Part shown: positions 22,311 through 42,121 of the stretch, piece by piece | How the letters are laid out: every line of letters starts with the position of its first letter | How positions within the stretch are numbered: the stretch's first letter is position 1 | DNA from: Nitrospirota bacterium | GTDB lineage: Bacteria > Nitrospirota > UBA9217 | Length of the DNA: 64,000 nucleotides | NCBI GenBank assembly: GCA_963751455.1 | Contig: CAVVUN010000011.1 | Coordinates: forward strand, 1 to 64,000 | Reading direction: 5' to 3' | Notes under the pieces: generated by a model | Seen by the model: only the letters and a program-made list of their open reading frames with translations | Databases searched by the model: none | What the model was told of the DNA's origin: nothing | Position numbers and translations under genes: made by a program

Positions 22311-24965
22311 CTATCTCCCCTGCAGCCTGACCAGCTTCCCCTCATCTCCATCCACGGCAATCCTGTCCCCATCCTTCAATATATTGAGCAGGCCGGGGAT
22401 GTTCACAACCGCCGGGATGCCGTATTCCCGGGCAACGATTGCGCCGTGCGAGAGATACCCGCCGGTCTCCATTGCGATCGCGGATGCACGCAGAAAGAGG
22501 GGAGTCCACCCGGGGTCCGTGGAAGGAGCGATCAGAACGTCCTTGTGCTTGAGCCGGGTCCCTTCGTCGGGGTGAAGAACGATCCTGACCGGTCCTTCAG
22601 CCTTTCCTGCTGCAACGCCCAGACCGGTCAGTGCCTCTCCTGCAATGTCTGCGACATGCTCTGCCTGCCGCGGCACATCGCCGATGATGATGTCCGGCGG
22701 ATGCAGTTTCCGGTTTTGCTCCTGTGCGATTTTTCGTTCTTCGACAGCGAGCTGCAGACCCGTTCCGTTCCAGTACCCCTTCAGGATTGATCGCACTTCA
22801 TTCCAGGTGCAGTGATAGATGTCGGACTGCTCGAGGATTATTTTTTTCCCGGCAAAGCGCAGGCCGAGCTCATTGATCAGCAACCGCATGGGTTCGAGGT
22901 TCAGGTTCAAAACCGAACGTGCCATCTCGCGAAGTTGCGCGCCCTGGACCGCCTGCTTTATCAGATAATCGACCTGCAGACGACGGAGGAGCGGCAATTT
23001 CGCACGGATCTCCTGTCCGGCCTGCATGGACACCTGTTTCTGCCGCGCTCTGATCGCCGCCAGACCGGCAGTATCAAGCGTGTTCCGTATACTGTTCAGA
23101 AGATAGGAAGGGTCTTCCCTCCAGCAGGGATTCATCAACTCTGATTCGTAAATCGCCCGGTGGCCGAATTCGTCGAGAAAATCGGCGAATCCTTTCCTGA
23201 AGGGCGACAAATCGGGCAGGCCCGTCCACGACTGTGGTTCAAAGGGCTGTGATGTCAGGAATCGCCGGGCATCCGGATCAGTGCGGGCGATCTCGGCAAG
23301 CGCGAGAAGTTTGTAACCCTGCTCGGCGCTGGTAATCCCGTCCTGTCCCGCCATCAGCCCATTGATCAGGGAATGCGCCCTGTTTGCGGGGAAATACCTG
23401 ACAAGCATCTTCTTGAGCAGCGAGACGGGCTGTCCGGCCAGGCCGGTAAGCATCATGTACACCGGGTAAGAGCTTTCGATCACCGAATTCAGTTCGTCGA
23501 GGACCGCCAGGAGCTCCTTGTCCTTCAATCCTTTGGTGTCGATGCTCCTGAATCGGTCCGATGCCTGTCGAAGCCGTTGAAAGGAGGCGGAGGCCTCTCT
23601 TTTGGCCTTCATGGTTGCCCGTACCAGCTGCAGGATATGTTTTATCCTCCGCATGCCTTTTATGCCCCGGTACCGGCCTTCTCCTTGCACGGATATTTCC
23701 GGCTGATGGCCGCCAATGATTTCATTAATTTCACGGGGCAGCATGGCTGCGCCGTCGAAGTATTCCCACTGCATGAGAGACAGGTTCATATACAGTCTGC
23801 CGTTGAACAGCCTGACGCGCTGCAGACCCTCGAGCATTCGATACCCCATGATTTTTGTTGGTATACTCATCATGAGGTTCAGCTCATGCCGGTAAGTGCT
23901 CCAGCTGAGGGTCGAAGCGACCATGGGAAGAACGTCCCGGGAATTGGCATTGGACCAGATGTCCGGCTGGGACCTGAGCTCAGGGTAGGTGTACCGGGGC
24001 AGGGCAGTGACGGGCCGCGCCTGGACCAGGATGAAGTCCCTCCCGTCGAAGACCCACTCGATGTCCTGGTGCTGTTCTCCCGTGCCCAGCTGGTCCATGA
24101 CCCTGAGGGTCAACAAAGCGAGCTCATGGATTTTCTCGTCGGACAGTACCTGGCCGCTGTTTGGCGCCGAGAAGACCAGTTCCGTCCCGCCGTCCTTTTT
24201 CGCCACAGTCCTGGCTTGTTTCCGGCCGATCTTCTTTGCCAGCAACAGCGCTGTTCTGGTTGCCACGCGGTATTCGTCCGGCTCTACTGCACCCATCACG
24301 ACGCTTTCGCCCAGCCCGAAATTGGCATTGATCACCATCAGGTCTTCCCGGCCGGTGCCCGGATCGCAGGAAAAAGCAATCCCGGAAGCTGACGGCTCGA
24401 CCATCTCCATGATCACGACAGCCGGGGCCGCCTGGTTGTCGGCAATGTTCATTTTCCTTCTATACGCAACCGCTCGCGAGGTCCAGACCGATGCATAACA
24501 TGCTTTGATCGCGTGGACGATGTTGTCCAGGTCCCTGACATTCAGGAACGACTCGTGTATGCCGGCAAAGGAGGCTGCCGCGGAATCCTCCAGGCCGGCT
24601 GAAGAACGGACGGCCAGGGGCTTTTCGAAAAGACCAAGCTGCTTGAGCTGTGCGGTAAGTTCCTGTTCAACGCGGGAGGGGAAAGGAGCATTTATGACCT
24701 CCTGCCGGATGGAATCGAGGAGATGCGCTTTTTGAGACAAGGCATCGATCGTGACTTCCCGGGACACCTGCTCAAGACGGTCGCCAAGGTTGTTCGCGGC
24801 AATGAATTCCCGATAACCTGCAGAGCTCAGCACGCCCCCGGCTGGAACGGGAAATCCGTATCGAACAAGCCTGGCCAGGTTCCAGCCCTTGCCGCCGACA
24901 GTTGCCGCTTTTTCTTCGAAAGCCTCGAGCCAGGTAAGAAAAAGCTTCTCATTTGTTTTTTTCAT
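22311..24965 (-). CDS. PEP-utilising phosphotransferase, PPDK/rifampicin phosphotransferase-like architecture
   Basis: N-terminal ATP-grasp (GGKG.NL, AVRSSA..ED...SFAG, QDIEW, QARPVT); C-terminal swivel His domain (TDPGWTPLF, SHGAIVAREYGIPAV). Confidence 0.9.
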   Translation of the reverse strand: MKKTNEKLFLTWLEAFEEKAATVGGKGWNLARLVRYGFPVPAGGVLSSAGYREFIAANNLGDRLEQVSREVTIDALSQKAHLLDSIRQEVINAPFPSRVEQELTAQLKQLGLFEKPLAVRSSAGLEDSAAASFAGIHESFLNVRDLDNIVHAIKACYASVWTSRAVAYRRKMNIADNQAAPAVVIMEMVEPSASGIAFSCDPGTGREDLMVINANFGLGESVVMGAVEPDEYRVATRTALLLAKKIGRKQARTVAKKDGGTELVFSAPNSGQVLSDEKIHELALLTLRVMDQLGTGEQHQDIEWVFDGRDFILVQARPVTALPRYTYPELRSQPDIWSNANSRDVLPMVASTLSWSTYRHELNLMMSIPTKIMGYRMLEGLQRVRLFNGRLYMNLSLMQWEYFDGAAMLPREINEIIGGHQPEISVQGEGRYRGIKGMRRIKHILQLVRATMKAKREASASFQRLRQASDRFRSIDTKGLKDKELLAVLDELNSVIESSYPVYMMLTGLAGQPVSLLKKMLVRYFPANRAHSLINGLMAGQDGITSAEQGYKLLALAEIARTDPDARRFLTSQPFEPQSWTGLPDLSPFRKGFADFLDEFGHRAIYESELMNPCWREDPSYLLNSIRNTLDTAGLAAIRARQKQVSMQAGQEIRAKLPLLRRLQVDYLIKQAVQGAQLREMARSVLNLNLEPMRLLINELGLRFAGKKIILEQSDIYHCTWNEVRSILKGYWNGTGLQLAVEERKIAQEQNRKLHPPDIIIGDVPRQAEHVADIAGEALTGLGVAAGKAEGPVRIVLHPDEGTRLKHKDVLIAPSTDPGWTPLFLRASAIAMETGGYLSHGAIVAREYGIPAVVNIPGLLNILKDGDRIAVDGDEGKLVRLQGR

Positions 24966-26847: not shown

Positions 26848-28040
<1,193 letters not shown>

Positions 28041-29711: not shown

Positions 29712-30145
29712 ATGAAAAGCGTCATTGAACTCAAGATTGATGCGCCGCTGGAAAGGATTGCGGCACTCTTCGCTGATCCTCAACAAAACACAAAGTGGAT
29801 GGATGATGTTGAAAGGGTGGAGCCGATTAGCGGCCAGCTTGGCATGCCGGGCTCTCAATACCGGCTCGTGCCGAAGAAGGGGAACATGGTCTTTGTCGCG
29901 ACGGTTCTTTCCAGGAATCTTCCCACTGAATATCAATTGATTCTTGAAGCATCAAGCGCAACTGTGTCAGTGAAGGGAACTTTGGTCGCCTTATCTTCAG
30001 ACAGGACGCGTCTCATATCTGAAGAGGTGTTCAGTTCAAGGGGCTATTCAACCAGTTATTCGGCTTCCTGGCGCAAGGAGCAATCAAGAAAGCGCACCGC
30101 CGGCATATGGAGGCATTCAAGCGCTTCGCGGAAGCCCAAATGTGA
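29712..30145 (+). CDS. SRPBCC (START-like) family protein, frameshift near 30035
   Basis: MKSVIELKIDAPLERIAALFADP..NTKW; C-terminus HMEAFKRFAEAQM* lies in another frame. Confidence 0.7.
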
Positions 30146-30902
30146 GCCAATAGACCGGGTAGAGCAGCGCGAAACCCGACAACGACAAATTGGGGTCACC
30201 TATGCCGCGAAACCAGCGCGGCAAATCAAACCGTGCGAGAGGAATTTACCCCTGCGCGGGCAGCCGCTCACCCGGAGTGATGACGGAAAGCATAGATTAA
30301 CCTTGACTTAAACATTAAAGACTTGACCTTATTGCTTCCTGAGAGAAGCGGCGATGAAGGTCGCGGCCTCAAACAGCATAAAGGGCCGGATTGTGTGCAT
30401 TGAGTTACTCCGCGAACGTCTCGACAGTTTCGAAGCAGTCAGCGTCCTTCGTTAATTATCTATTGATAACTATATGGCTGTATCAGGTGAGTGTCAGTGA
30501 GAGCAAATTTCTGTTGGGAGGCGTGGCAATTACTGAATAAAACTTTGGCCGTAACGGAAACGGGAACTTAAACGCCTTTTGAAAGGGAAGTGATCGGGAG
30601 GTCTGTGCGGCTGGTCGAGAACCCGTGAAGTTCGGGGCACGTCTGATCAATTCCTAATTTCCTTAGCCTGATCCCATTCGGTCCCAGTGTGCCGAGAGAT
30701 AGAGCACGGATAGGTGACTGGTTTATGGTCCGAAAGACCCTTGCGGAACGGCTTACGGGAAACGCTGGTGGTGAAACCGGAGGCCTTTTTATAGACCCTA
30801 TGAGGCCTCAACCGGAAGCACACAACGCGCTCGCGCACATCTTCTCCTGGCTTAACAGATGGAATAGGAATTAGAAAATTTCACGGTGCGTGAGCAAACA
30901 GT

Positions 30903-31316
30903 TCAATGCCTGCGAAACTTCATCGACCTGAACCGAGCAAGAATATTACATTCGCTGCATTGACATTGACATTGACACTGGGTATTATCGATACAGAATG
31001 TAGGTATGCACTCGCAGCATTCGGTATCTGGTTTGATATCATCTTTAATAATTCTGCTTGAGTACGCGCCTATCAGCTCTTCCACAGACATGATATCCGT
31101 TACCATAATTTTAGCGTCTGCCGCGAGGCTAAGTATCACCATGCCATCACGTGCCGTTTCTTTGCCGATAATCGATTTTGAGGGAATATCAAAAATGCAT
31201 CCGCCCGTTTTCAGACTCACAATATCCCCGTTCTCCTCCACGATCTTTCCGGCGACTCGCGCGTTTGTCGTTGCAATTTCACTGACTTTCTCAAATTGCT
31301 CATATCGCTTTGACAT
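30903..31316 (-). CDS. 137-aa protein with Cys-rich C-terminus; candidate radical SAM substrate or precursor
   Basis: RBS AGGAGG at 31321-31326; tail ECCECIPTFCIDNTQCQCQCQCSEC; directly downstream of the radical SAM gene. Confidence 0.7.
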   Translation of the reverse strand: MSKRYEQFEKVSEIATTNARVAGKIVEENGDIVSLKTGGCIFDIPSKSIIGKETARDGMVILSLAADAKIMVTDIMSVEELIGAYSSRIIKDDIKPDTECCECIPTFCIDNTQCQCQCQCSECNILARFRSMKFRRH

Positions 31317-31414
31317 ACACCCTCCTTTCCGGGGAACATCTGAATTCCCGTTGCATTTCGTTAAGTTGCTTATTGCCTTAGCCTCTTTACATGACTCACA
31401 GTTCAAAGTGTGCT

Positions 31415-32860
31415 TTATGTAACTGCCTTATCAATTACGAACATACCCCGTTTAGGCCCCTCTCCTTGCATCATCTTCCAGGCCAGCAAACTGATGAACC
31501 CGGGTATAATGAACTTGTGTAGCCTGCAGAACGGCGATTTGGAAAAGGGGTGTTTGTTCATCCTGAGGTTCAGGACGGGGCATCCGCCCGCACATATGGA
31601 AAACCAGGCGCACGCCATGCATTCATCCTCATGAGGCCTCTTCTGCCTTTCGAAGGGATTCCATTTAAAGGAGCTTCTGCACGCTTCGAGCATGTCGTTT
31701 CCCGGCTCTATGCCTTCCTCATCCACGCACATGGGACACGAGACTATTTTTCCGTCCGGCTTCACCACAATGTGGTTGTAACCGATGCCGCAGGGCGCCC
31801 CCCAGGCAGGGTTGTCGAAATACAGATCACATAGCTTCAGATTGCTTATGAACTCATATGAGTAACGCGGATCCTTCAGCTCTTCAAACGTCGTCTCGAA
31901 GGACTGTATCAGCCTGTCACAAACCTCGTTATGGTCGCGCTCGGTATCCTGGCTCCAGGGCGTGAAGCAATCCGGCTGACGGACCACGTCAAGCCGTGCT
32001 CTGTATCCATTATCATGAACCCAACGGACAAGCTGCGGCAGGCTTTCGCAAGTCTCTCCGCTTATGGTCGCATTGATAAACGGCTTTATTCCATTTTCCC
32101 TCAGCATGGCCAGATTTCTCTGGATGACGCTCCAGCTCCCCTTGCCGCTCCGAACGAAAATCCTGAAAGTATCGTGGACGGTACCGTATCCGTCAATAGA
32201 TACGCTAATACTGGTGCCGGGCTTCTTAAGGAAATCGATTATTCTGCTGTTTAAAACGGTCCCGTTAGTCAGAACCGCGAAGCCCAGCTTCGCTGGTGTG
32301 CCTGCCATCTCTTTTTCGAATATCGACCTGAATGATTCCAGTTCCGGCACTGCCAGCGTCGGCTCTCCACCCGCGAATTTGATCGTTATATTCTGAATAT
32401 TGTATTTTCCGGCTGTCCATGCAAGGGCCCGTGCAGTTTTAGTGGCGGCTTCTTCGCGCATTATTACAGGGCGCTTATCTCCGACAAAGCAGTAGGCACA
32501 TTTAAGGTTACACGAGTTTGTCACGTGCAGCCATACTGATACCCATTGAGGGGGATCAGCTTCAAGAACAGAAGGCAGTGTGTGAGGCAACGGGGTCGGC
32601 TCCGGGCGCAGGAGCCCGTTATCCTGCAGAAAGGCTATTGTGGCAAGTGCCTTTGAGGCATCTTCTGTCCGGGAGACAACTTCAAAGATCGTTCTGCCCC
32701 CATCGAAATTCCTCATTATTTTCAATGTTTCATCCTGCACGACCACAGGCAGCCCGGGATAGTCGGGGGCAAACAGAATCCACCGCTCCCGGTTAATCCT
32801 CTCCCTAAAAACAATTTTAGAGGACCAAAGTCTATCCCCTAGGAAGACAGTAGTTTTCAT
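31415..32860 (-). CDS. Radical SAM/SPASM maturase with N-terminal RRE/PqqD-like domain
   Basis: CNLKCAYC, GGEP, TNGT, SIDG; SPASM CGIG..DGKIVSC...CMACAWFSICAGGC...C; wHTH-like N-terminus ending LQDNGLL. Confidence 0.9.
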   Translation of the reverse strand: MKTTVFLGDRLWSSKIVFRERINRERWILFAPDYPGLPVVVQDETLKIMRNFDGGRTIFEVVSRTEDASKALATIAFLQDNGLLRPEPTPLPHTLPSVLEADPPQWVSVWLHVTNSCNLKCAYCFVGDKRPVIMREEAATKTARALAWTAGKYNIQNITIKFAGGEPTLAVPELESFRSIFEKEMAGTPAKLGFAVLTNGTVLNSRIIDFLKKPGTSISVSIDGYGTVHDTFRIFVRSGKGSWSVIQRNLAMLRENGIKPFINATISGETCESLPQLVRWVHDNGYRARLDVVRQPDCFTPWSQDTERDHNEVCDRLIQSFETTFEELKDPRYSYEFISNLKLCDLYFDNPAWGAPCGIGYNHIVVKPDGKIVSCPMCVDEEGIEPGNDMLEACRSSFKWNPFERQKRPHEDECMACAWFSICAGGCPVLNLRMNKHPFSKSPFCRLHKFIIPGFISLLAWKMMQGEGPKRGMFVIDKAVT

Positions 32861-32963
32861 TGTTCGTTCTCGCAGGTTAGAGAGAGGTTAAGTCGATTCC
32901 TGTCGCTTCTCGTCTTAGCAGTCCTTTCCTCTCAGGGGCGTTCGCATGAATTCCGTCTCTTTG

Positions 32964-33539
32964 TCAACACGGCGGACAAGCACGGCATACGTCACAACTT
33001 TGAGTACAAACACACGTGTGGATAGTCCCCCCCGGTTCACTTTCTTCGGAACAGCCTGTGCAGTTATCACAGGTCGCAGGATTTCCGTCCCCACAGGGAT
33101 CAGGGTCGTCATTGAAGAAATATCGTATGCCTCCGAACCGCGGCGCCCTCATATAGACCACATCGTGATTCCCTCCGCTTTTGCCGGGAAGCGCTCCTGA
33201 AATCAATAAACCGGCCCCCTGATTGTTTTTAATTGATGTTCGAAGCGGCTCAGGAAGAGAGTCATATGACCGGTGGTTATCCTGAAACCATTTTTGAAGG
33301 TCGGTTCCCACAAGCAGTTTCGTCTGATCAGGATTAAAAGCCTTCTTAAAGAGGTCCTTAAAGCCCTGTTGGGCCTCGAGTATCATCAGTATTTTTGTTT
33401 GATTTTCAAGGACCGCTGTGCGTTGATCAGGCTTAGTTTTACTGCAGCTGGTGAGTAGCGCAGTTGAATAAACAACGGCAAGGATCAGAACAAGCAGGCT
33501 TTTCCATTCACCGATCAAGCCGTACTTCACAGTACCCAT
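32964..33539 (-). CDS. Putative lipoprotein with Cys-rich C-terminal domain
   Basis: RBS GAGGAGG; signal ending LLTSC; tail CGDGNPATCDNCTGC...CVCTQSCDVCRACPPC. Confidence 0.7.
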   Translation of the reverse strand: MGTVKYGLIGEWKSLLVLILAVVYSTALLTSCSKTKPDQRTAVLENQTKILMILEAQQGFKDLFKKAFNPDQTKLLVGTDLQKWFQDNHRSYDSLPEPLRTSIKNNQGAGLLISGALPGKSGGNHDVVYMRAPRFGGIRYFFNDDPDPCGDGNPATCDNCTGCSEESEPGGTIHTCVCTQSCDVCRACPPC

Positions 33540-33555: not shown

Positions 33556-34389
33556 TCTTCTTTTGCTACTGATTGCTTATGGGGCGGGGGCGGCGGCACG
33601 CCTGAAAATCAGCTCGAAGATACGCCAGGTGGAACCCAATCAGATTCTGCGCCGGTCTCGACAGGCACCCCTGTGGAGTCAACGATCACCGGTAATGAAT
33701 CCCATTATTTTTCCTTTACCACGGGCGCATACAGCGGATCATACGGTGTTGCAGTTACCGGGGCCGAGGCTGATATCAGTTGGGATCTCTACGCTGCCCC
33801 TGATTATTCGTCCGATTTCATTGCCAACTGCGATAAACACTTCACTGCAGTAAATGAAATCTGTTCCGTAACGCTGGAAGCAAATACAGCATATTACCTC
33901 AAAGTCAGGAGTTGGGACGACATCACGAGCACATATACCCTCATCGTGACTTTCCTTGACCCCGCAGCCGGGTGCGGCACCGGGCAGTGCATCAACTTTG
34001 AAAGCGGATCAGTCCCCGCGTCAATCATGGCCTCAGGAAATGCAGCCTGGGTAATCGATAATTCGACCGCGGCGTCAGGAAGCTACAGCATTCATTCCGG
34101 CGTCATCTCCGACAACGAGATGAGTTGCTTTGAATACACACCGTCGGGCAATACGGAAGTTGTGCTCTTCAGTTTGAAGACGGACAGCGAGCTATGGGTT
34201 GATCAGCTCAAATTCTATATAGATGGAGTAAAACAATCCTCTTCATGGTCGGGATTAGACACTCCGTGGGTCCGCGTTATTTTCGGGACGAGCGCGGGCT
34301 CGCATAGTTACAAGTGGTGCTACGACAAGGACGGCTCATTCTCGAAAGGAACAGACATGGTCTGGGTGGACGACATCGAATTCAGATAG
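33556..34389 (+). pseudogene. 5'-truncated extracellular beta-sandwich (PPC-like) protein
   Basis: Frame is open well upstream of GTG 33673 (GGGGGTPENQLED); degenerate signal LLLLIA in the adjacent frame; no start or RBS; ends VWVDDIEFR. Confidence 0.55.
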
Positions 34390-34468: not shown

Positions 34469-37400
34469 ATGATGCAGGCAAAGAGATTCCTGTCGGGAGC
34501 AGTGTTGTTTCTTATCCTCATCGTATTCGGCAATCAGTATATCGAGGCCCAAAGCATTCCATCTCCAACTCCTCTGACAAATAGCGGGCACGTGGAGACG
34601 GACACATTCGCCGGCAATGTTCACATCCCCAGCGGCAGAGTATTTTTTACCGAAACAGACCTGACTGTGGATTCTCCGGGCATCCCGCTAATCATAGAGC
34701 GAAGCTACAACAGCGTAATCTATCCGGGACCAGACCCTGCCCGGAGTTTTTACACGAAAAACCCGCTCGGAAAGGGTTGGACGCTTTCATTCTGGCTGCG
34801 CTTATTCGATGAGAGTGAAACGGTGACCCTGCTTGACAGTGAAGGAGAAATTTATGTTTTCACAAGGACCGAGAGCGGCGGCTATGTCGCGCCGCCGGGC
34901 TTCCCTGCGGTGCTTTCAAAAGAGAATGCCGGTTTCCAGCTCTTAACCAGTGAAAACCTCATATTCAGGTTTTCGACTGATGGCTACCTCCTTTCCATCA
35001 GCAACTTACGCGGCCTGAGTCTGTCTCTTTCTTATGATGAATCAAATCGGATCAAGGAGATTAGTGATACACTCAACAGGAAAACCTTTTTTACTTACCA
35101 GGATGAACTTTTAATCTCAATTCAATCTCCCGTGGGATTCATCGTATCCTATACGCACGATTCAGAAAAACGCCTGATTAAAAAGACCGACACATTCGGA
35201 AACACGGTCGAATATGAGTATGAATCTTTGACTTCTAAACTCGCTAAAATCACAACTGCCGCAAACACGGTCCAGTACCAGTATGACAGCGACGGCCGGG
35301 TGGTGAAAGAGCTATCGACATCCGGCAAGAACGACTTCACCTATTCGACAGAGCTGCATCAGACCAACCGGACCGATAACGCAGGCGGCCTAACCATCTA
35401 TACCTATAACGAAAACGGCCTGGTGACCCGCATTCAATCCCCAGACAGGTCTATTACGGAGTATACGTATGACGGAAACTACAACAGGACTTCCGTTATC
35501 AATCCGGATGGATCCGTTTCTCATAAACAATATGACGAAAACGGAAACGTTATTCAGGAAACGGACAGCACGGGTAAGACCACGACCTATACATACGATG
35601 CCTATCTCAATCTCGTATCGTCCATCAGATACTTTGACGGCCGGACGGAGACATTCGTGTACAACTCATACGGAGAGCTGGTGAGAAAAACAACTTCTGC
35701 CGGCACATCGACCTACACCTATAACGATTACGGCCAGCTTATAAACTATGAGGGACCGGACGGGAAAAGCGCCACCACATACGACGAAAATCAACGAGTA
35801 AAGACATACATGGGTACAGACAACGTTACCATGACTTATACGTACGATCAGTACGGCAGGGTGACCGCAGAAGCGGGGTCGGACGGAAGCAGTAGAGCGA
35901 TCACGTACGACGACCAGGGGAACCCGGTATCGGTCACCTACGAATGCGGGGCGAGCGAGAAGTTCGACTATGACGGAGCGGGAAGAGTGATTGCTGCGTA
36001 TGATCTCAACGGGAACAAAACGGAATATACGTACGACGACCAAGGGAATCTCTCGGTGATGAAAGACGCCCTCGGCTTCACCACGAAGTACACCTATGAC
36101 AGCCGGAACAATGTGAAGTCCGTCACGGATCCCCGCGGCAACACAACCACCTTATTGAACAATGACGCCGGTAAGCCGACATCGATCACCGACCCTCTTC
36201 AAAACGTTGTATCCCTGGCTTACGATCAGAGCAACAACATGACCGCCATTACAAACGCGAGAGGCCACAAAACGAAGATCACATATGACGCGAGCGCGAG
36301 AGTAACGAGCAGTGAGGACTCTGCGGGTGCAAAGACTATCTATACCTATGATTCGTATGACAACGTGACACGCGTTGAAAGGCCGAACGGCGGCGTTACG
36401 CAGTTTTTTTACGTGCACAACGAGGCATTCAACGACCTCAGGATCCCGGACATGCTGCTCGGAGCTATTCCTTTGGACAAGCTAAAGATCGACAAAAAGA
36501 GCAGAATCACAAAAATAATCGACGCTGAAAACAACATCGCGATATACACCTACGATGCCAAGGGCAACCTGATATCGTCAAAAGACGCTAAGGGCAACTT
36601 TTCTACCTATACGTATAACGACAAGAACCAGATGATCAAAGCGACTGATCCGCTTGGCCATTCCACTGCATTTCTGTATAATGATAAAGGAGACCAGTCA
36701 TCGGTGACCGATCCGAATGAAATGAGCACATCGATGACATATTTCTACTGCGGAACGGTAAAGCGGGTTGCGTCCATTGTAGACCCGCTCGGCCGTGAGA
36801 CGAAGTATCAGTACGACAAGATGGGCAACCTCCTTTCTGTGAAGCTGCCCGACGGAGCAACGACCACCTATGTTTATGATGCCGTATACAGGTTAATATC
36901 CCAAAAAGACTCAACGGGCGCCGGTACAACTTACGGTTATGATGAAGGAGGCAACCTGATTTCGGTAACCGACTCTCGGGGATACAAGACGACCTACGAA
37001 TACGACTACCTGGGCCGCGTGACGGTAATAAAAGATCCTCTCGGCAACATTACCAGTATTGGCCGCGACCAAGTGGGTAATATCAACCAGGTGACGAATG
37101 CACTCGGCGAGCAAACGACAAACCTGTACGATCAACTTAACCGCACGACCGAAGTGATTAACTCGCTCGGCCGGTCCTTCAAGTATGCCTACGATAATTC
37201 CGGGAACCTGTTATCCGTAACGGACCCAAAGGGGAATAAAAACGCCTATGGCTACGATAAACTGAACCGTCTCTTGAACATTACGAATGCCCTTAATCAG
37301 AACACGCATTTTGAATACGATGCCCTGGGAAACCGCGTTGAAGTCAGGGACGCCAAGGGCCTTTCCAAACACTATGTGTATGACTCCGCGAACAGGCTTG

Positions 37401-40198
37401 TCAAAATTAAGAATGCGAAGGGCGGAGAAACGACCCTTTTCTACGACAACATAGGGAATGCTATTAAGAGCATCGACCCGAACGGCAATTCTACTACGTT
37501 TAGCTATGATGCTCTAAACCGCGTGACTAGAAAGCAGGACGCTTTTGCCAACGCGGTCTCGTATACGTATAATGCAGCAGGAGCGGTGACGACAATCACC
37601 GATCCCAACGGGAACGGGACGCAGTATGAGTACGATTCCATGGGCAGGCTGACAGCGGTCATAGACGCTCTGGGAGAAAGGACCACCTACTCCTTCGACC
37701 CGGCGGGTAATCTCGTAAAGATATCGGACGCAAACGGGAACGCGACCGAATACGGCTATGATCCCCTGGGAAGAATTGCGCAGGAGCTGAAACCGCTCGG
37801 GAACAAAACACTGTACGAATATGACGCCATCGGAAGACTGGCCAAGGTTACGACGCCGAAGGGTGAAGCAATCGAATATGTCTATGATGCCGCGGGAAAC
37901 CTTATTACAAAGAAGCTGCCCCACGGCAACCATCTGCAGTTTACCCATGATGAACTGGGGAATACAATTTCCGCCCAAACGCCCTATTTCCGGGAAGAAA
38001 TGAAGTACGATCCGCTGGGACGGCTTACCAAGAGGCGTGTCACAACCTGGGACAAAACAACCGAGTATGCGTACGATCCGGTGGGAAACCTCACCCGCCT
38101 GACCGACCCGCTCGGCAATACGACCCATTATACTTATGACGAGATAGGGAAGGTTTCGGAGGTTACGGACGGACAGGGCAATAAGACTACTTTTGCCTAT
38201 GATGCCGGCAGCAGGCTTGCGCAAAAGACCTATCCGAACGGGGTCAGCACCCTGTACAAATGGGACGAGGCAAATCGGCTCATAACACTGATCGCCCAGT
38301 CACAGAGGTTCGGCCAGGTGAACGGCTACTCTTATCAATATGACAGCAGCGGCAACCGGATAGCGGCCATCGAGGACGACGGCATCGGAACAACCTACGA
38401 TTACGACGCATTAAACCGGCTCGTAAAAGTCAACTATGATTACGACAGTCTCATGAAAGTTCGAAACACCTGCCTGGTGCCGCCGTGCCCCAAGGGCAAT
38501 GCCTGGGGCGCGGGAGGAGTGGACACGTCCATCTTCCCGAACCTTGAAGATCCGCTCCATTATGAGAGTTTCACCTATGACAGCGTCGGCAACAGAGCAA
38601 GCCTGGAGCGTGATGGAGTTTCTGTATCTTATACCTTCGACAAGGCGAACAGGCTCCTGAACGCAAGCGGAAAAGGACAGCCAGTTACGTTCGAGTACGA
38701 TGAAAACGGCAATCTTGTAAAGGAAACCGGGCCGGACGGCGTGATCACGTACGCATACGATGCCGAAGGAAAGCTCACCGAGGTCGTTCTTCCCGACGGC
38801 ACCGGCATCAAGAATCTCTACGATGCTTTTGGGAGAAGGATCGTGACTGACGAAACCTACTGGCAGAACAAGAACCATGTTTTCTTCGACGAAACGAAGA
38901 TGCTGTACAGCGGCATGGGCTATTTGCCGGAAGCTCTGGGCAGGATGGGAGTGATAAATCCCTATCTGCCGGGATTATCCTCCGGGACATCGCCTATTGC
39001 GGGGCAGAATGTACTCATGGAGTTCACCGAGCAGGACAATCCGATGAATGCCTACATTTATGCGAATGGCGAAATCATATCCAAGCGCATGTGGGGCTTC
39101 AAGGGAAGAAAAGACCCCGGTGCAGTCGGAAATATAAGGCATCGGGGCAATACTCTTTACTACCATAGCGATGCCTTGGGAAGCGTCGTGGACATCACGG
39201 ACCACCTTGGGGAAAACATCATCAAGAACCGCTACCTTGCTTTCGGCGCGCCGGTTGCCGGTGACTTCGCTCCCTACGGCAGGTTCGGGTTCGCCGGCAT
39301 GCCGTTCGAGGAGAAAATAGGGAAATACTATGCCGGGAGCAGGTTCTATGACTACCAGGCGGGAAAGTTCCTGACTCCCGATTTTCATAAAGGCGGAATA
39401 CTCACGCCGGCCTCGCTGCACCAATACATCTACGTTTTGAATAACCCCGTAATGTATATTGATCCAATGGGCTACGGCCTTCGAAAGTGGGCCAAGCGGG
39501 CGGTTCGAAAAGTCACCCAAAAGATGGGCCAGCAGCTTGATAGAGGTTCCAGATGGGCGATGCGAAATGCAGTGAAAACCGTGCAAAGACTTCCTGACAA
39601 TGCCGTGGGCAGTGTATTTAAAGGTTTGTTTGGCGCAGTTTATTCCACGGCAGCGTTCGGAACAATGATTGTCATGGCGCCGGTCAGTGCATTGATTGAT
39701 CCGGCCTGGACGCAAAGCTACCTTCAACTGACGTACAATTTTACTCCGACCGGCCAGCTTCAGAACAAGCAACGAACAGGGGACTACGCAACGTTAGAGA
39801 TGTTTGAGGGAGCCCCCTATGTTCGGGACAGTCTTTGGGGAGGCGGCCGAGGCCATGGCACCACATGGGGACCAGTAGCGTTTATTGGGAGGACCGATCA
39901 TCTTACGTCGACACAAGAACTTGCCTTGCTTCGCCATGAATATGGGCATATACTGCAATATGAGGAGATGGGGGGCTGGCGCTACCAAAGGCAAGCGGAT
40001 GATGGTGGATATGAAATGGGTGCCTTTGAGTGGGGTGCGGATGTGGCGGCCACGGAATATTTCGATGTCGACGTGTGTGCATACCGACATGCATGCCATC
40101 CCAATGATCACTGTCACCGGATAGGATACATGTGCGTGAACGGCCAAGAACAATATTGTCCAAGTGGCGATTTAAGCAACTGCTTTGGGACGCCGTAA
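34469..40198 (+). CDS. RHS/YD-repeat protein with signal peptide and HExxH C-terminal domain
   Basis: RBS GGAGG, Sec signal, DUF6531-like RSYNS..LGKGW, many YD repeats, core end YVLNNPVMYIDPMG, tip LRHEYGHILQ. Confidence 0.92.
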   Translation: MMQAKRFLSGAVLFLILIVFGNQYIEAQSIPSPTPLTNSGHVETDTFAGNVHIPSGRVFFTETDLTVDSPGIPLIIERSYNSVIYPGPDPARSFYTKNPLGKGWTLSFWLRLFDESETVTLLDSEGEIYVFTRTESGGYVAPPGFPAVLSKENAGFQLLTSENLIFRFSTDGYLLSISNLRGLSLSLSYDESNRIKEISDTLNRKTFFTYQDELLISIQSPVGFIVSYTHDSEKRLIKKTDTFGNTVEYEYESLTSKLAKITTAANTVQYQYDSDGRVVKELSTSGKNDFTYSTELHQTNRTDNAGGLTIYTYNENGLVTRIQSPDRSITEYTYDGNYNRTSVINPDGSVSHKQYDENGNVIQETDSTGKTTTYTYDAYLNLVSSIRYFDGRTETFVYNSYGELVRKTTSAGTSTYTYNDYGQLINYEGPDGKSATTYDENQRVKTYMGTDNVTMTYTYDQYGRVTAEAGSDGSSRAITYDDQGNPVSVTYECGASEKFDYDGAGRVIAAYDLNGNKTEYTYDDQGNLSVMKDALGFTTKYTYDSRNNVKSVTDPRGNTTTLLNNDAGKPTSITDPLQNVVSLAYDQSNNMTAITNARGHKTKITYDASARVTSSEDSAGAKTIYTYDSYDNVTRVERPNGGVTQFFYVHNEAFNDLRIPDMLLGAIPLDKLKIDKKSRITKIIDAENNIAIYTYDAKGNLISSKDAKGNFSTYTYNDKNQMIKATDPLGHSTAFLYNDKGDQSSVTDPNEMSTSMTYFYCGTVKRVASIVDPLGRETKYQYDKMGNLLSVKLPDGATTTYVYDAVYRLISQKDSTGAGTTYGYDEGGNLISVTDSRGYKTTYEYDYLGRVTVIKDPLGNITSIGRDQVGNINQVTNALGEQTTNLYDQLNRTTEVINSLGRSFKYAYDNSGNLLSVTDPKGNKNAYGYDKLNRLLNITNALNQNTHFEYDALGNRVEVRDAKGLSKHYVYDSANRLVKIKNAKGGETTLFYDNIGNAIKSIDPNGNSTTFSYDALNRVTRKQDAFANAVSYTYNAAGAVTTITDPNGNGTQYEYDSMGRLTAVIDALGERTTYSFDPAGNLVKISDANGNATEYGYDPLGRIAQELKPLGNKTLYEYDAIGRLAKVTTPKGEAIEYVYDAAGNLITKKLPHGNHLQFTHDELGNTISAQTPYFREEMKYDPLGRLTKRRVTTWDKTTEYAYDPVGNLTRLTDPLGNTTHYTYDEIGKVSEVTDGQGNKTTFAYDAGSRLAQKTYPNGVSTLYKWDEANRLITLIAQSQRFGQVNGYSYQYDSSGNRIAAIEDDGIGTTYDYDALNRLVKVNYDYDSLMKVRNTCLVPPCPKGNAWGAGGVDTSIFPNLEDPLHYESFTYDSVGNRASLERDGVSVSYTFDKANRLLNASGKGQPVTFEYDENGNLVKETGPDGVITYAYDAEGKLTEVVLPDGTGIKNLYDAFGRRIVTDETYWQNKNHVFFDETKMLYSGMGYLPEALGRMGVINPYLPGLSSGTSPIAGQNVLMEFTEQDNPMNAYIYANGEIISKRMWGFKGRKDPGAVGNIRHRGNTLYYHSDALGSVVDITDHLGENIIKNRYLAFGAPVAGDFAPYGRFGFAGMPFEEKIGKYYAGSRFYDYQAGKFLTPDFHKGGILTPASLHQYIYVLNNPVMYIDPMGYGLRKWAKRAVRKVTQKMGQQLDRGSRWAMRNAVKTVQRLPDNAVGSVFKGLFGAVYSTAAFGTMIVMAPVSALIDPAWTQSYLQLTYNFTPTGQLQNKQRTGDYATLEMFEGAPYVRDSLWGGGRGHGTTWGPVAFIGRTDHLTSTQELALLRHEYGHILQYEEMGGWRYQRQADDGGYEMGAFEWGADVAATEYFDVDVCAYRHACHPNDHCHRIGYMCVNGQEQYCPSGDLSNCFGTP

Positions 40199-40650: not shown

Positions 40651-42121
40651 CAGTAGTGTCTGGTTATCGTTTTTCTAATGTGCGATAACTCGCTGTCATT
40701 CAAAGATAAAAGAGACTGTATGCAACTTTTCGATTTGAACTTAATTTATCCAGAATCATCCTATAATCCACCTCATCTATGCATGAGGAGGGACGAAGAT
40801 GAATTCCGGAAAGACGGTTTTTGCTCAGCTGATCCAGCATCTACCACGGTACGAGTTCAACCAATGCGTCCTTCGTTATCACGGCAATCACAAAGTCAGA
40901 AGCTTTTCATGCATGGATCAGTTTCTCTGCATGGCATTTGCCCAGCTGACCTATCGCGAAAGCTTGCGCGATATTGTAACGTGTCTCAACTCCCATCGAC
41001 CAAAGCTTTACCACATGGGCTTTCGAGGGAAGGTCGCCAAATCCACGTTGGCGGACGCCAACGAGCTTCGAGACTTCCGCATCTATCAGGACTTCGGCTA
41101 TTTGCTCATCGACATCGCCAGCAAACTTTATCGGAACGAGGAGTTTGCCCGTATCCCATTTCGTCGATGAGGCAGCTAAATCAATCATTTGTTTTGTTGC
41201 CAATTTTTACCTCAAAAGGCGGGCAGTGGAAGCATCCCCGGTCAAGTGCAGAGCATATTATCTCTCTTGATAAGGCGAGGATACGAGGCCTCGACCTGAA
41301 GCTCTCGGTCTTTGCGCTGGACTCAACGATCATCGATCTTTGCCTTTCCACGTTCCCTTGGGCGACGTTTCGGAAAAAGAAAGCAGCCGTCAAGATTCAC
41401 ACTTTGCTCAACGTGCAGGGATCGATTCCAACCTTTATTTTCGTGACTCCCGGCAGCGTTCACGATGTCAATATGATGGATACTGTCCCGTTCGAAGCCG
41501 AATCGGTCTATACAATGGATCGCGCTTACCTCGACTTCGAGCGACTTTACCAAATCGATCAACTGTCCGCGTTCTTCGTTATCAAGAGCAAAAGCAATAC
41601 CCGGCTTCGTCGCGTCTACTCTGCTCCCGTGGACAAAGCCGACGGGGTGCAAGCCGATCAGACGGTTATGCTCATTGGCTACAAATCCCGCAAGGCTTAT
41701 CCAGATCCATTTCGTCGGGTGCGCTATTACGACACCGAACGAAACAAACGCTTGGTGGTTCTTACGAACAATTTCCTTATCCCGGCCAAAACAGTCGCGG
41801 ATATTTATCGCTCGCGTTGGCAGGTAGAGCTGTTCTTCAAGTGGATCAAGCAACACTTGCGGATCAAGTCGTTCTTCGGGACATCTCCGAATGCGGTCAA
41901 GATCCAAATCTGGATTGCCGTAAGCGTTTATCTCCTCGTGGCGATTGTCAAGAAGAGATTGAATCTGCCCGGCAGCCTCCACACAATTCTACAGATTTTG
42001 GAGGTCAACCTTTTTGATAAAATACCGATTTCTCAACTGGTTGAAGACACTATCAATCACGAAAACGAATATCGCGACGATAATCAATTGAATCTATTTA
42101 CGTAACAACCGGACACTACTG
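40651..42121 (+). mobile_element. IS4 family element (DUF4372-type DDE transposase 40799-42105, disrupted)
   Basis: TIR CAGTAGTGTC(T/C)GGTT; 9-bp TSD ATTTCCTTT (40642-40650 and 42122-42130); ALDST, MDRAY and YRSRWQVELFFKWIKQ motifs. Confidence 0.95.
41148..41287. mobile_element. 140-bp MITE-like insertion in the IS4 transposase
   Basis: Ends CCCGTATCC / GGATACGAG; removing it fuses the two ORFs as NEEFGLDLKLSVFALDST. Confidence 0.75.

What the first reader, a model, noticed from the sequence alone, without database searches (positions are those of the whole stretch)
30903..33539. RRE-radical SAM/SPASM enzyme between two proteins with Cys-rich tails: candidate new RiPP or protein-crosslinking system
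Seen: three co-oriented genes. (1) A predicted lipoprotein ending CGDGNPATCDNCTGC...CVCTQSCDVCRACPPC. (2) A radical SAM/SPASM enzyme with an RRE-like N-terminus. (3) A 137-aa protein with about 100 aa of Cys-poor N-terminus and the tail ECCECIPTFCIDNTQCQCQCQCSEC. Established: RRE-SPASM enzymes (ranthipeptide/sactipeptide maturases, QhpD) make Cys-carbon thioether links. Inference: one or both neighbours are substrates. The alternating CxCxCxC core, long leader, possible exported substrate and lack of any adjacent peptidase or ABC exporter fit no class I recognise (SCIFF, CXXX-repeat, Cys-every-fifth).
Basis: partly seen in the sequence, partly recalled or inferred. Interest (0 to 1): 0.8.

Follow-up and report, generated by a model that had tools for sequence, protein, structure and literature searches.

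The report
Radical-SAM enzyme with barrel-leader cysteine substrate
A rare, unnamed radical-SAM enzyme family travels with a small protein made of a predicted folded barrel and a variable cysteine-repeat segment, which the enzyme likely staples with sulfur-carbon bridges, while the cysteine-tailed lipoprotein next door is probably only a local passenger.

Summary
The three genes are real and at the stated coordinates. The enzyme (481 aa) has a predicted RRE, a CxxxCxxC motif and a seven-Cys SPASM domain. It belongs to a discrete family of about 52 clusters, and reaches the cut-off of none of the 25 best NCBIfam models. The lipoprotein rides along only in close relatives: 0 of 11 informative distant loci have the enzyme, and the Desulfosarcinaceae genome lacks it. 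Most likely the enzyme installs Cys thioether cross-links on a protein-sized substrate, as CrpC/CrpA (2026) and QhpD/QhpC do. It is not a member of those families, and its six active-site residues match none of the three enzymes compared, so the chemistry is open. No look-alike sequence was in this scan's earlier findings. New variant of a known kind.

The parts
30903..31316 (-). Precursor-like protein P0001, 137 aa; likely substrate
   Evidence: no NCBIfam hit and no Pfam hit near cut-off
31089..31268 (-). Predicted small beta-barrel leader domain, residues 17-76; weak resemblance to Hfq/Sm/SH3-type barrels
   Evidence: AlphaFold2 block pLDDT 92-96 over residues 21-70; Hfq/LSm rows Z 3.0-3.9, rmsd 1.2-2.7 A over 38-43 residues, none at Z 5 or more
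30948..31019 (-). Cys-rich core, residues 100-123, 9 Cys; variable repeat in homologues (6-13 Cys, period 2 or 3)
   Evidence: low confidence in the model
30903..30947 (-). Arg/Lys-rich 14-aa follower and stop; Phe next to Arg/Lys in 27 of 32 aligned members
   Evidence: redundant set; the regex is loose
31415..32860 (-). Radical SAM/SPASM enzyme P0002, 481 aa, unnamed family
32606..32833 (-). Predicted RRE (PqqD-like) domain, residues about 10-85
32489..32512 (-). CxxxCxxC SAM-cluster motif, Cys117/121/124, invariant in 49 of 49
31526..31792 (-). SPASM domain: Cys357/375/427 (AuxI by alignment to CteB) and Cys414/417/423/445 (AuxII); six invariant, Cys445 in 39 of 49
32964..33539 (-). Predicted lipoprotein P0003, 191 aa, conserved 10-Cys tail; part of the cassette only in close relatives

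Best explanation
The 481-aa radical SAM/SPASM enzyme and the 137-aa protein form a conserved two-gene unit in which the enzyme likely binds the protein's predicted barrel leader and likely closes several Cys-to-carbon thioether rings in its Cys-repeat core. Inferred mechanism: SAM cleavage gives a 5'-deoxyadenosyl radical that takes an H atom from an acceptor residue of the core, a core Cys thiol binds the open iron of the three-Cys AuxI cluster, and the C-S bond forms with loss of 2 Da per ring. Acceptors are most likely the Asn/Asp/Glu/Gln residues that fill the core; S-to-alpha-carbon hairpin links are a close second. With no linked protease or exporter and no conserved Gly-Gly site, the product probably stays a whole cytoplasmic protein whose left-over thiols bind metal. 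The lipoprotein is probably a passenger of this lineage. Shown: genes, motifs, family boundaries, co-occurrence. Inferred: binding, reaction, linkage, fate and function.
For: Discrete enzyme family: 52 of 68 hits at 232 bits or more, then a drop to 179 or less; one side of a branch with SH-aLRT 99 in a quick tree. Linkage: 7 of 31 precursor records share exact contig length, and source, with one of 81 enzyme records, against a null mean of 0.21 and a maximum of 4 in 20,000 jitters; 4 of the 7 are distant (36-47% enzyme identity). In genome G401 the enzyme (48%) runs off one contig end and the precursor begins at base 1 of another. Leader identity tracks enzyme identity over 8 loci (Spearman 0.89, 28 non-independent pairs). 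Cys is the only invariant core residue and its number varies from 6 to 13, as in RiPP cores. Asn, Asp, Glu and Gln make up 109 of 256 non-Cys core residues in 17 representatives. The nearest NCBIfam model for P0002, and the only one hit by all 49 members, is PapB, and the nearest structure is CteB. The seven-Cys SPASM with three-Cys AuxI is the arrangement reported for CrpC (PMC13692751, main text parts 1-4 of 9); the extra Cys344 is replaced in 12 of 49.
Against: [quoted passage not shown] The PapB CX3D/E motif is not conserved (14 of 163 core Cys; 7 of 17 representatives have none). Cys344 is present in 37 of 49 and could fill the AuxI site in most members. Linkage outside the window rests on contig lengths and one broken assembly, not on read neighbourhoods; two chance length matches (903, 1063) show the method has noise. 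24 of 31 precursor records found no match (11 lie on contigs under 2 kb, and only 10 enzyme clusters were expanded). The barrel (32% mean identity) is only a little more conserved than the non-Cys core (26%) in a rough alignment.
Confidence: 0.55

Rival explanations
1. Same enzyme-substrate pair, different chemistry: the enzyme modifies the core without forming ordinary thioethers (Cys-to-Cys lanthionine-like ladder, oxidation of Cys, C-C links or epimerisation), leaving many thiols for metal binding.
For: Active-site profile F-A-L-S-P-M with invariant Lys161, Trp110, His112 matches none of the three enzymes compared. In the CNCNCNC-turn-CNCNC cores both halves are Cys-alternating and some have almost no Asp/Glu.
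Against: All nearest characterised relatives with Cys-rich substrates make thioethers (PMC13692751). The sulfatase CxPxR motif is absent in 17 of 17 precursors and the cyclopropyl-synthase GYW motif in 49 of 49 enzymes.
Confidence: 0.2
2. Three-gene system: the lipoprotein is a second substrate (cross-linked before export, QhpC-like) or a dedicated periplasmic partner.
For: In 3 of 4 runs laid, relatives cover all three genes; two contigs bridge the enzyme start and the lipoprotein end (X1 record 6, X4 record 21), and contigs run into unlike sequence at about 30896 and 33575, so the three genes move as one block. A 14,459-nt record holds all three by length match. One distant lipoprotein and one distant enzyme share a 4,063-nt length.
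Against: 0 of 19 lipoprotein loci (11 with at least 700 nt downstream, about 7 distinct contexts) hit the enzyme profile at E up to 1, while the window's own 700 nt scored E 8e-72. No homologue in G401 (the same profile rings in G000). The 4,063 match is within chance (null mean 0.25). The tail has a fixed 10 Cys in 43 of 45 members, more like a five-disulfide or metal domain. No profile similarity to the precursor (probability 0.6%).
Confidence: 0.13
3. The 137-aa protein is not modified; it is a metallothionein-like or Fe-S-carrying helper of the enzyme, whose true substrate lies elsewhere.
For: CxC and CxxC runs are typical metal-binding patterns (general knowledge); no processing genes are linked; the barrel could be a docking module.
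Against: Variable Cys number and spacing suit a modified core better than a fixed cofactor site. The enzyme has an RRE, which implies a peptide or protein substrate. No second copy of the precursor profile in the genome.
Confidence: 0.12

Closest known systems
CrpC/CrpA of Methanococcus voltae (TIGR04463; PMC13692751, 2026)
   Same: RRE-rSAM-SPASM enzyme with seven SPASM Cys and three-Cys AuxI; substrate is a protein with an N-terminal domain and a Cys-repeat C-terminal region; no linked protease verified; thioethers shown by MS.
   Different: P0002 scores 71.6 bits against a cut-off of 525. CrpA is 298 aa with a 17-residue repeat and C-X-X-Q/D motifs; here 115-185 aa with period-2 or -3 Cys and a basic follower. 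None of the four motifs/accessions searched from this family occurs in its supplements. CrpC profiles as a ranthisynthase; this family lacks CteB's His.
PapB (NF047865) and CteB/SCIFF (TIGR03974) ranthipeptide maturases
   Same: Best HMM and best structure; same domain order and AuxI/AuxII Cys pattern.
   Different: 149.5 of 340 and 88.1 of 425 bits; about 20% identity to CteB; no conserved CX3D/E; substrate has a folded ~75-aa leader domain; active-site residues differ at 4 of 6 positions from CteB.
QhpD/QhpC (TIGR03906)
   Same: RRE-rSAM-SPASM enzyme cross-linking a small protein by Cys-Asp/Glu thioethers (as described in PMC13692751).
   Different: 102.5 of 453 bits; no amine dehydrogenase subunits among the neighbouring ORFs.
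Hairpin sactipeptides StsA/StsB and thurincin H
   Same: Cys spacing: CxCxC in StsA (PMC10288494) and Cys4/7/10/13 in thurincin H (PMC8172795, passages) mirror the period-2 and period-3 cores; the six-residue profile scores nearest StsB.
   Different: Only 1 of 6 profile residues identical to StsB; both halves of these cores carry Cys rather than Gly/Ser/Thr acceptors only; no exporter or protease.
RiPPs with structured leaders (NHLP proteusins; PMC12537861, abstract only)
   Same: Long leader with a tertiary fold ahead of a variable core.
   Different: Leader here is a predicted Sm/SH3-like barrel with no NHLP or Nif11 family hit and no conserved Gly-Gly site (3 of 17).

Membership tests
Radical SAM SPASM/twitch subfamily | CxxxCxxC plus C-terminal CX2CX5CX3C-type Cys motif | tested here: met
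RRE-dependent RiPP maturases | N-terminal three-strand, three-helix RRE | tested here: met
   predicted model and matches to CteB/TigE over the N-terminus; RRE-Finder itself was not available
RRE-dependent RiPP maturases | RRE binds the precursor leader | not tested
PapB ranthipeptide maturase (NF047865) | Score above curated cut-off 340 | tested here: not met
   149.5 bits; best member E 7.9e-45 against 1.3e-43 for P0002
PapB ranthipeptide maturase (NF047865) | Conserved CX3D/E motifs in the precursor | tested here: not met
   14 of 163 core Cys; none in 7 of 17 representatives. PapB tolerates other spacings in vitro (PMC9413430, passages)
SCIFF/CteB (TIGR03974) | Cut-off 425 and short six-Cys precursor | tested here: not met
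   88.1 bits; precursor has no NCBIfam hit
CteB/QhpD-like ranthisynthases | Catalytic-site-proximity profile like CteB (F-F-T-S-H-Q) | tested here: not met
   F-A-L-S-P-M, 2 of 6 identical; the paper's full residue table (SI PDF) could not be read
Thioether-forming rSAM-SPASM enzymes | Three-Cys AuxI with an open iron | tested here: inconclusive
   three invariant AuxI Cys by alignment, but Cys344 in 37 of 49
Thioether-forming rSAM-SPASM enzymes | -2 Da per ring with loss of free thiol | not testable with these tools
   needs co-expression and MS
CrpC / TIGR04463 | Score above cut-off 525 | tested here: not met
   71.6 bits
QhpD (TIGR03906) | Cut-off 453 and qhp operon | tested here: not met
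   102.5 bits; no qhp genes seen among neighbours
Anaerobic sulfatase maturase (TIGR03942) | Cut-off 349, Asp after the AuxI Cys, C/SxPxR substrate motif | tested here: not met
   97.5 bits; Pro376 in place of Asp; motif in 0 of 17 precursors
Cys-every-fifth (NF038107), CcpM (TIGR04068), geopeptide (TIGR04280), Nif11 (TIGR04064) maturases | Curated cut-offs | tested here: not met
   82.6/600, 85.1/500, 104.4/400, 101.7/518.7
Cyclopropyl synthases (TigE/TvgB) | GYW motif (PMC10878394, passages) | tested here: not met
   0 of 49
Sm/Hfq/LSm fold (leader domain) | Five-stranded Sm barrel | tested here: inconclusive
   many Hfq/LSm rows but Z 3.0-3.9 over about 40 residues; no Pfam support

The most novel reading that the evidence does not exclude
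A new class of post-translationally modified protein: an Sm/Hfq-like barrel serves as a permanent folded leader (possibly assembling into rings, as Sm proteins do; recalled), and a radical SAM enzyme with an unrecorded active site ladders its Cys-repeat core by a linkage not yet seen, such as Cys sulfur to a carbon of another Cys or to Asn, Lys or Thr in alternating register. One enzyme family would process both period-2 and period-3 Cys repeats, giving a rigid multi-thiol metal trap.
Probability: 0.2. Interest if true: 0.82.

Novelty: new variant of a known kind. Interest (0 to 1): 0.62.

Why it matters
Radical-SAM thioether cross-linking of whole proteins has few tested cases (QhpC, and CrpA in 2026). 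This is an independent family with a small, tractable substrate (137 aa, 9 Cys, against 298 aa for CrpA, whose repeats resisted MS), a leader fold not seen among the leader families scanned, and an active-site profile that the compared enzymes do not predict. A two-gene co-expression would test whether catalytic-site profiling extends to new clades, how an RRE engages a folded leader, and what natural Cys-Asn or Cys-Thr-Asp repeats become. An enzyme tolerant of such different Cys spacings would also be useful for stapling designed peptides.

Tried and rejected
Protein atlas: no usable hit for the precursor; only sub-0.9 unnamed clusters for the lipoprotein. Fold search of the precursor model: no Foldseek hit at E 0.001, best Z 3.7 (YabP-type Dsy0195) and 4.6 (rmsd 10 A, ignored); this does not show a new fold. 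No PDB sequence relative of the precursor family. Genome searches: precursor 0 of 400 and lipoprotein 0 of 400 other genomes of the own phylum, enzyme 0 of 63 of the own family; enzyme 0 of 64 and 0 of 400 others around G401: not found in those searched, so no further neighbourhoods could be read. First GTDB scan with close homologues found nothing. Viral contigs gave only distant radical SAM proteins (80 best loci, at most 35%); plasmids none. No RNA holder listed. Only 4 of 17 listed runs were laid; lack of cover on the flanks is not used as evidence, only the loose ends. Promoter and terminator scans are uninformative; no Rfam hit in 25-45 kb; no flanking repeats of note. The genome's two C39 peptidase hits are on other contigs; one is fused to YD repeats, the other (219-aa frame) was not examined. 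Dropped rows: P0069 (530 aa, repeat match) from the precursor set; partial P0100, P0102, P0128 from the enzyme alignment. The tree is the quick version, with long branches flagged. A stop codon lost after the Cys core was considered and rejected: the follower is conserved. Literature: six searches showed no paper on this family in their listings; four of five motifs had no occurrence and the CNCNCNC hits were, by title, unrelated; six motifs were absent from the 3,421-precursor table of PMC10288494. Unread supplements (SI PDF of PMC10288494; Figure S25 of PMC13692751 is a picture) may hold active-site profiles closer to this family, and subscription papers are not searched.
Full report
Observation. 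Three co-oriented minus-strand genes lie at 33539-32964 (191 aa, P0003), 32860-31415 (481 aa, P0002) and 31316-30903 (137 aa, P0001). The Cys core of P0001 is followed by a 14-residue basic follower, conserved in 7 of 7 close homologues. Neighbours are an Rhs gene and a small secreted-looking ORF on the other strand, an SRPBCC-like ORF, dehydrogenases and an IS4-type transposase. No peptidase or ABC exporter was seen among them.

The enzyme. P0002 has CxxxCxxC at 117-124 and a SPASM domain. Of 76 NCBIfam models hit, the best 25 shown are all far below cut-off: PapB 149.5/340, QhpD 102.5/453, sulfatase maturase 97.5/349, SCIFF 88.1/425, TIGR04463 71.6/525. A homology search gave 68 hits at E 1e-40 or better among 5,018 candidates: 52 score 232 bits or more, the other 16 score 179 or less. 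The in-family rows form one side of a well-supported branch in a quick tree. PapB is the only model hit by all 49 aligned members, at similar low strength. The model (pLDDT 91, pTM 0.89) shows an RRE-type N-terminus and is closest to CteB, then TigE and anSME. By alignment to CteB, Cys357/375/427 serve AuxI and Cys414/417/423/445 AuxII. Six are invariant and Cys445 is present in 39 of 49. Cys344 (37 of 49) might fill the fourth AuxI site but is Gly in a 94%-identical homologue.

The precursor. P0001 has no family annotation. A profile search of 1.84 billion representatives gave 18 hits; 17 are full family members and one repeat match was dropped. All but one truncated member share an N-terminal domain predicted as a beta-barrel (block pLDDT 92-96 over residues 21-70). 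Its best structural neighbours are mostly Hfq/LSm/SH3-type barrels, at Z 3.0-3.9 only, so the fold call is tentative. After a linker comes a core of 6-13 Cys, either alternating (CNCNCNC, a short turn, then CNCNC; or CQCQCQC) or every third residue (CTDCTECSYC or CTDCSRC repeats), then usually a basic follower. Phe lies next to Arg/Lys in 27 of 32 followers. Non-Cys core residues are dominated by Asn 47, Ser 33, Glu 26, Thr 26 and Asp 25 of 256. This is the leader/core/follower layout of a RiPP precursor at protein size.

Linkage of enzyme and precursor. Neighbourhoods could be read only in the window and in one Desulfosarcinaceae genome (G401). There the enzyme (48% identical) runs off the end of one contig and the precursor begins at the first base of another, lacking two residues; this fits the same gene order broken by assembly. 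By my reading of the ORFs, the upstream genes are a TetR/RND efflux operon and a GNAT protein, and the downstream ones a two-component pair. Indirectly, 7 of 31 precursor records share exact contig length and source with one of 81 enzyme records; jittered lengths give 0.21 on average and never more than 4 in 20,000 trials. Three of the seven are close relatives of the window and four are distant (36-47%), covering period-2, period-3 and mixed cores. Two chance matches in control comparisons show the noise level. Leader identity rises with enzyme identity over the 8 loci (Spearman 0.89, pairs not independent). The system is rare and patchy: not found in 400 other genomes of the own phylum, nor in 400 of G401's phylum, which suggests a laterally moving cassette (inference).

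The lipoprotein. P0003 has 45 clusters with a conserved, fixed 10-Cys tail (43 of 45) and no Pfam family. In close relatives it travels with the other two genes. Three of four runs laid cover all three, two contigs bridge enzyme and lipoprotein, and contigs turn into unlike sequence right at about 30896 and 33575. One contig also runs from the precursor 20 nt into the enzyme gene. A 14,459-nt record appears to hold all three. Further out the link fails. None of 19 metagenome loci has the enzyme; 11 of them have at least 700 nt downstream (about 7 contexts), and the same test on the window gives E 8e-72. G401 has no homologue. One distant length match (4,063) is within chance. The two Cys-rich proteins are unrelated. 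An exported protein with an even, fixed Cys count is most simply a disulfide- or metal-stabilised domain (inference). I rate it a passenger, or at most an optional partner.

Mechanism. The best reading is thioether stapling of P0001 by P0002 (0.55). For it: the nearest characterised relatives, the RRE, three invariant AuxI Cys, and a core in which only Cys is invariant and carbonyl-bearing acceptors abound. CrpC, with the same Cys arrangement, was shown to put thioethers on a Cys-repeat protein with help from an N-terminal domain (PMC13692751; main text parts 1-4 of 9 and parts of two supplements read). Against it: the six catalytic-site-proximity positions (PMC10288494; parts 1-4 of 8 read) read F-A-L-S-P-M. 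This lacks the His of CteB and the Asp of anSME and scores slightly nearer the sactisynthase StsB. CX3D/E is not conserved, though PapB accepts other spacings in vitro (PMC9413430, passages). The period-2 and period-3 spacings recall StsA and thurincin H (PMC8172795, passages), so alpha-carbon hairpin links remain possible; Cys-Asn links are known from NxxcB (recalled). The linkage type is open. With no linked protease or exporter and Gly-Gly/Gly-Ala before the core in only 3 of 17, the product probably stays whole; metal binding is a guess from the surplus thiols and from the CrpA precedent.

Novelty. It works like CrpC/CrpA or QhpD/QhpC but is a member of neither. The enzyme family, the barrel leader and the cores were not found in six paper searches or in the 3,421-precursor table of PMC10288494, within the limits of an open-access library. 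This scan's earlier findings hold no look-alike sequence for any of the three proteins; a phage system with a folded Cys-tailed substrate is similar in idea only (unchecked). Structured leaders are known for NHLPs (PMC12537861, abstract), with another fold. Verdict: a real, rare, uncharacterised two-gene system; a new variant of a known kind; interest 0.62, with a one-in-five chance of new chemistry or architecture that would rank about 0.8.

Noticed in passing
window 34469-40198 (+): 1909-aa Rhs/YD-repeat protein with DUF6531 and an unannotated Cys-rich C-terminal tip, possibly a polymorphic toxin or surface protein.
   Followed up: partly
window 33673-34389 (+): 238-aa ORF with no Pfam or NCBIfam hit, divergent from the cassette; the frame seems to lack its 5' part, perhaps lost where the cassette was inserted.
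   Followed up: no
window 30627-30734: Short intergenic element matched by several unrelated-looking contigs in runs X1, X4 and X6 and by one other place in the genome; may be a REP-like repeat.
   Followed up: partly
G000:C1:187459-190818 (L107): 796-aa ORF joining an Ig-like region, TPR-like helices, a C39 peptidase domain and YD repeats, cut by an IS fragment; an unusual C39-Rhs fusion.
   Followed up: no
window 26848-27972 (-), 29712-30311 (+), 40678-42105 (+): Frameshifted aldo-keto reductase, SRPBCC-like and IS4-type transposase genes: the region looks like a decaying variable island.
   Followed up: no
window 22311-24965 (-): 884-aa PEP-utilising enzyme of the rifampin-phosphotransferase domain order beside a TetR gene (the family likeness is recalled).
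   Followed up: no
L001-L019; window 32964-33539: The lipoprotein is itself an unannotated family (45 clusters) with a fixed 10-Cys tail, standing alone in varied soil and sediment contexts; fold and function unknown.
   Followed up: partly
protein P0066: One precursor carries two Cys-Asn cores separated by a 23-residue spacer, suggesting core duplication.
   Followed up: no
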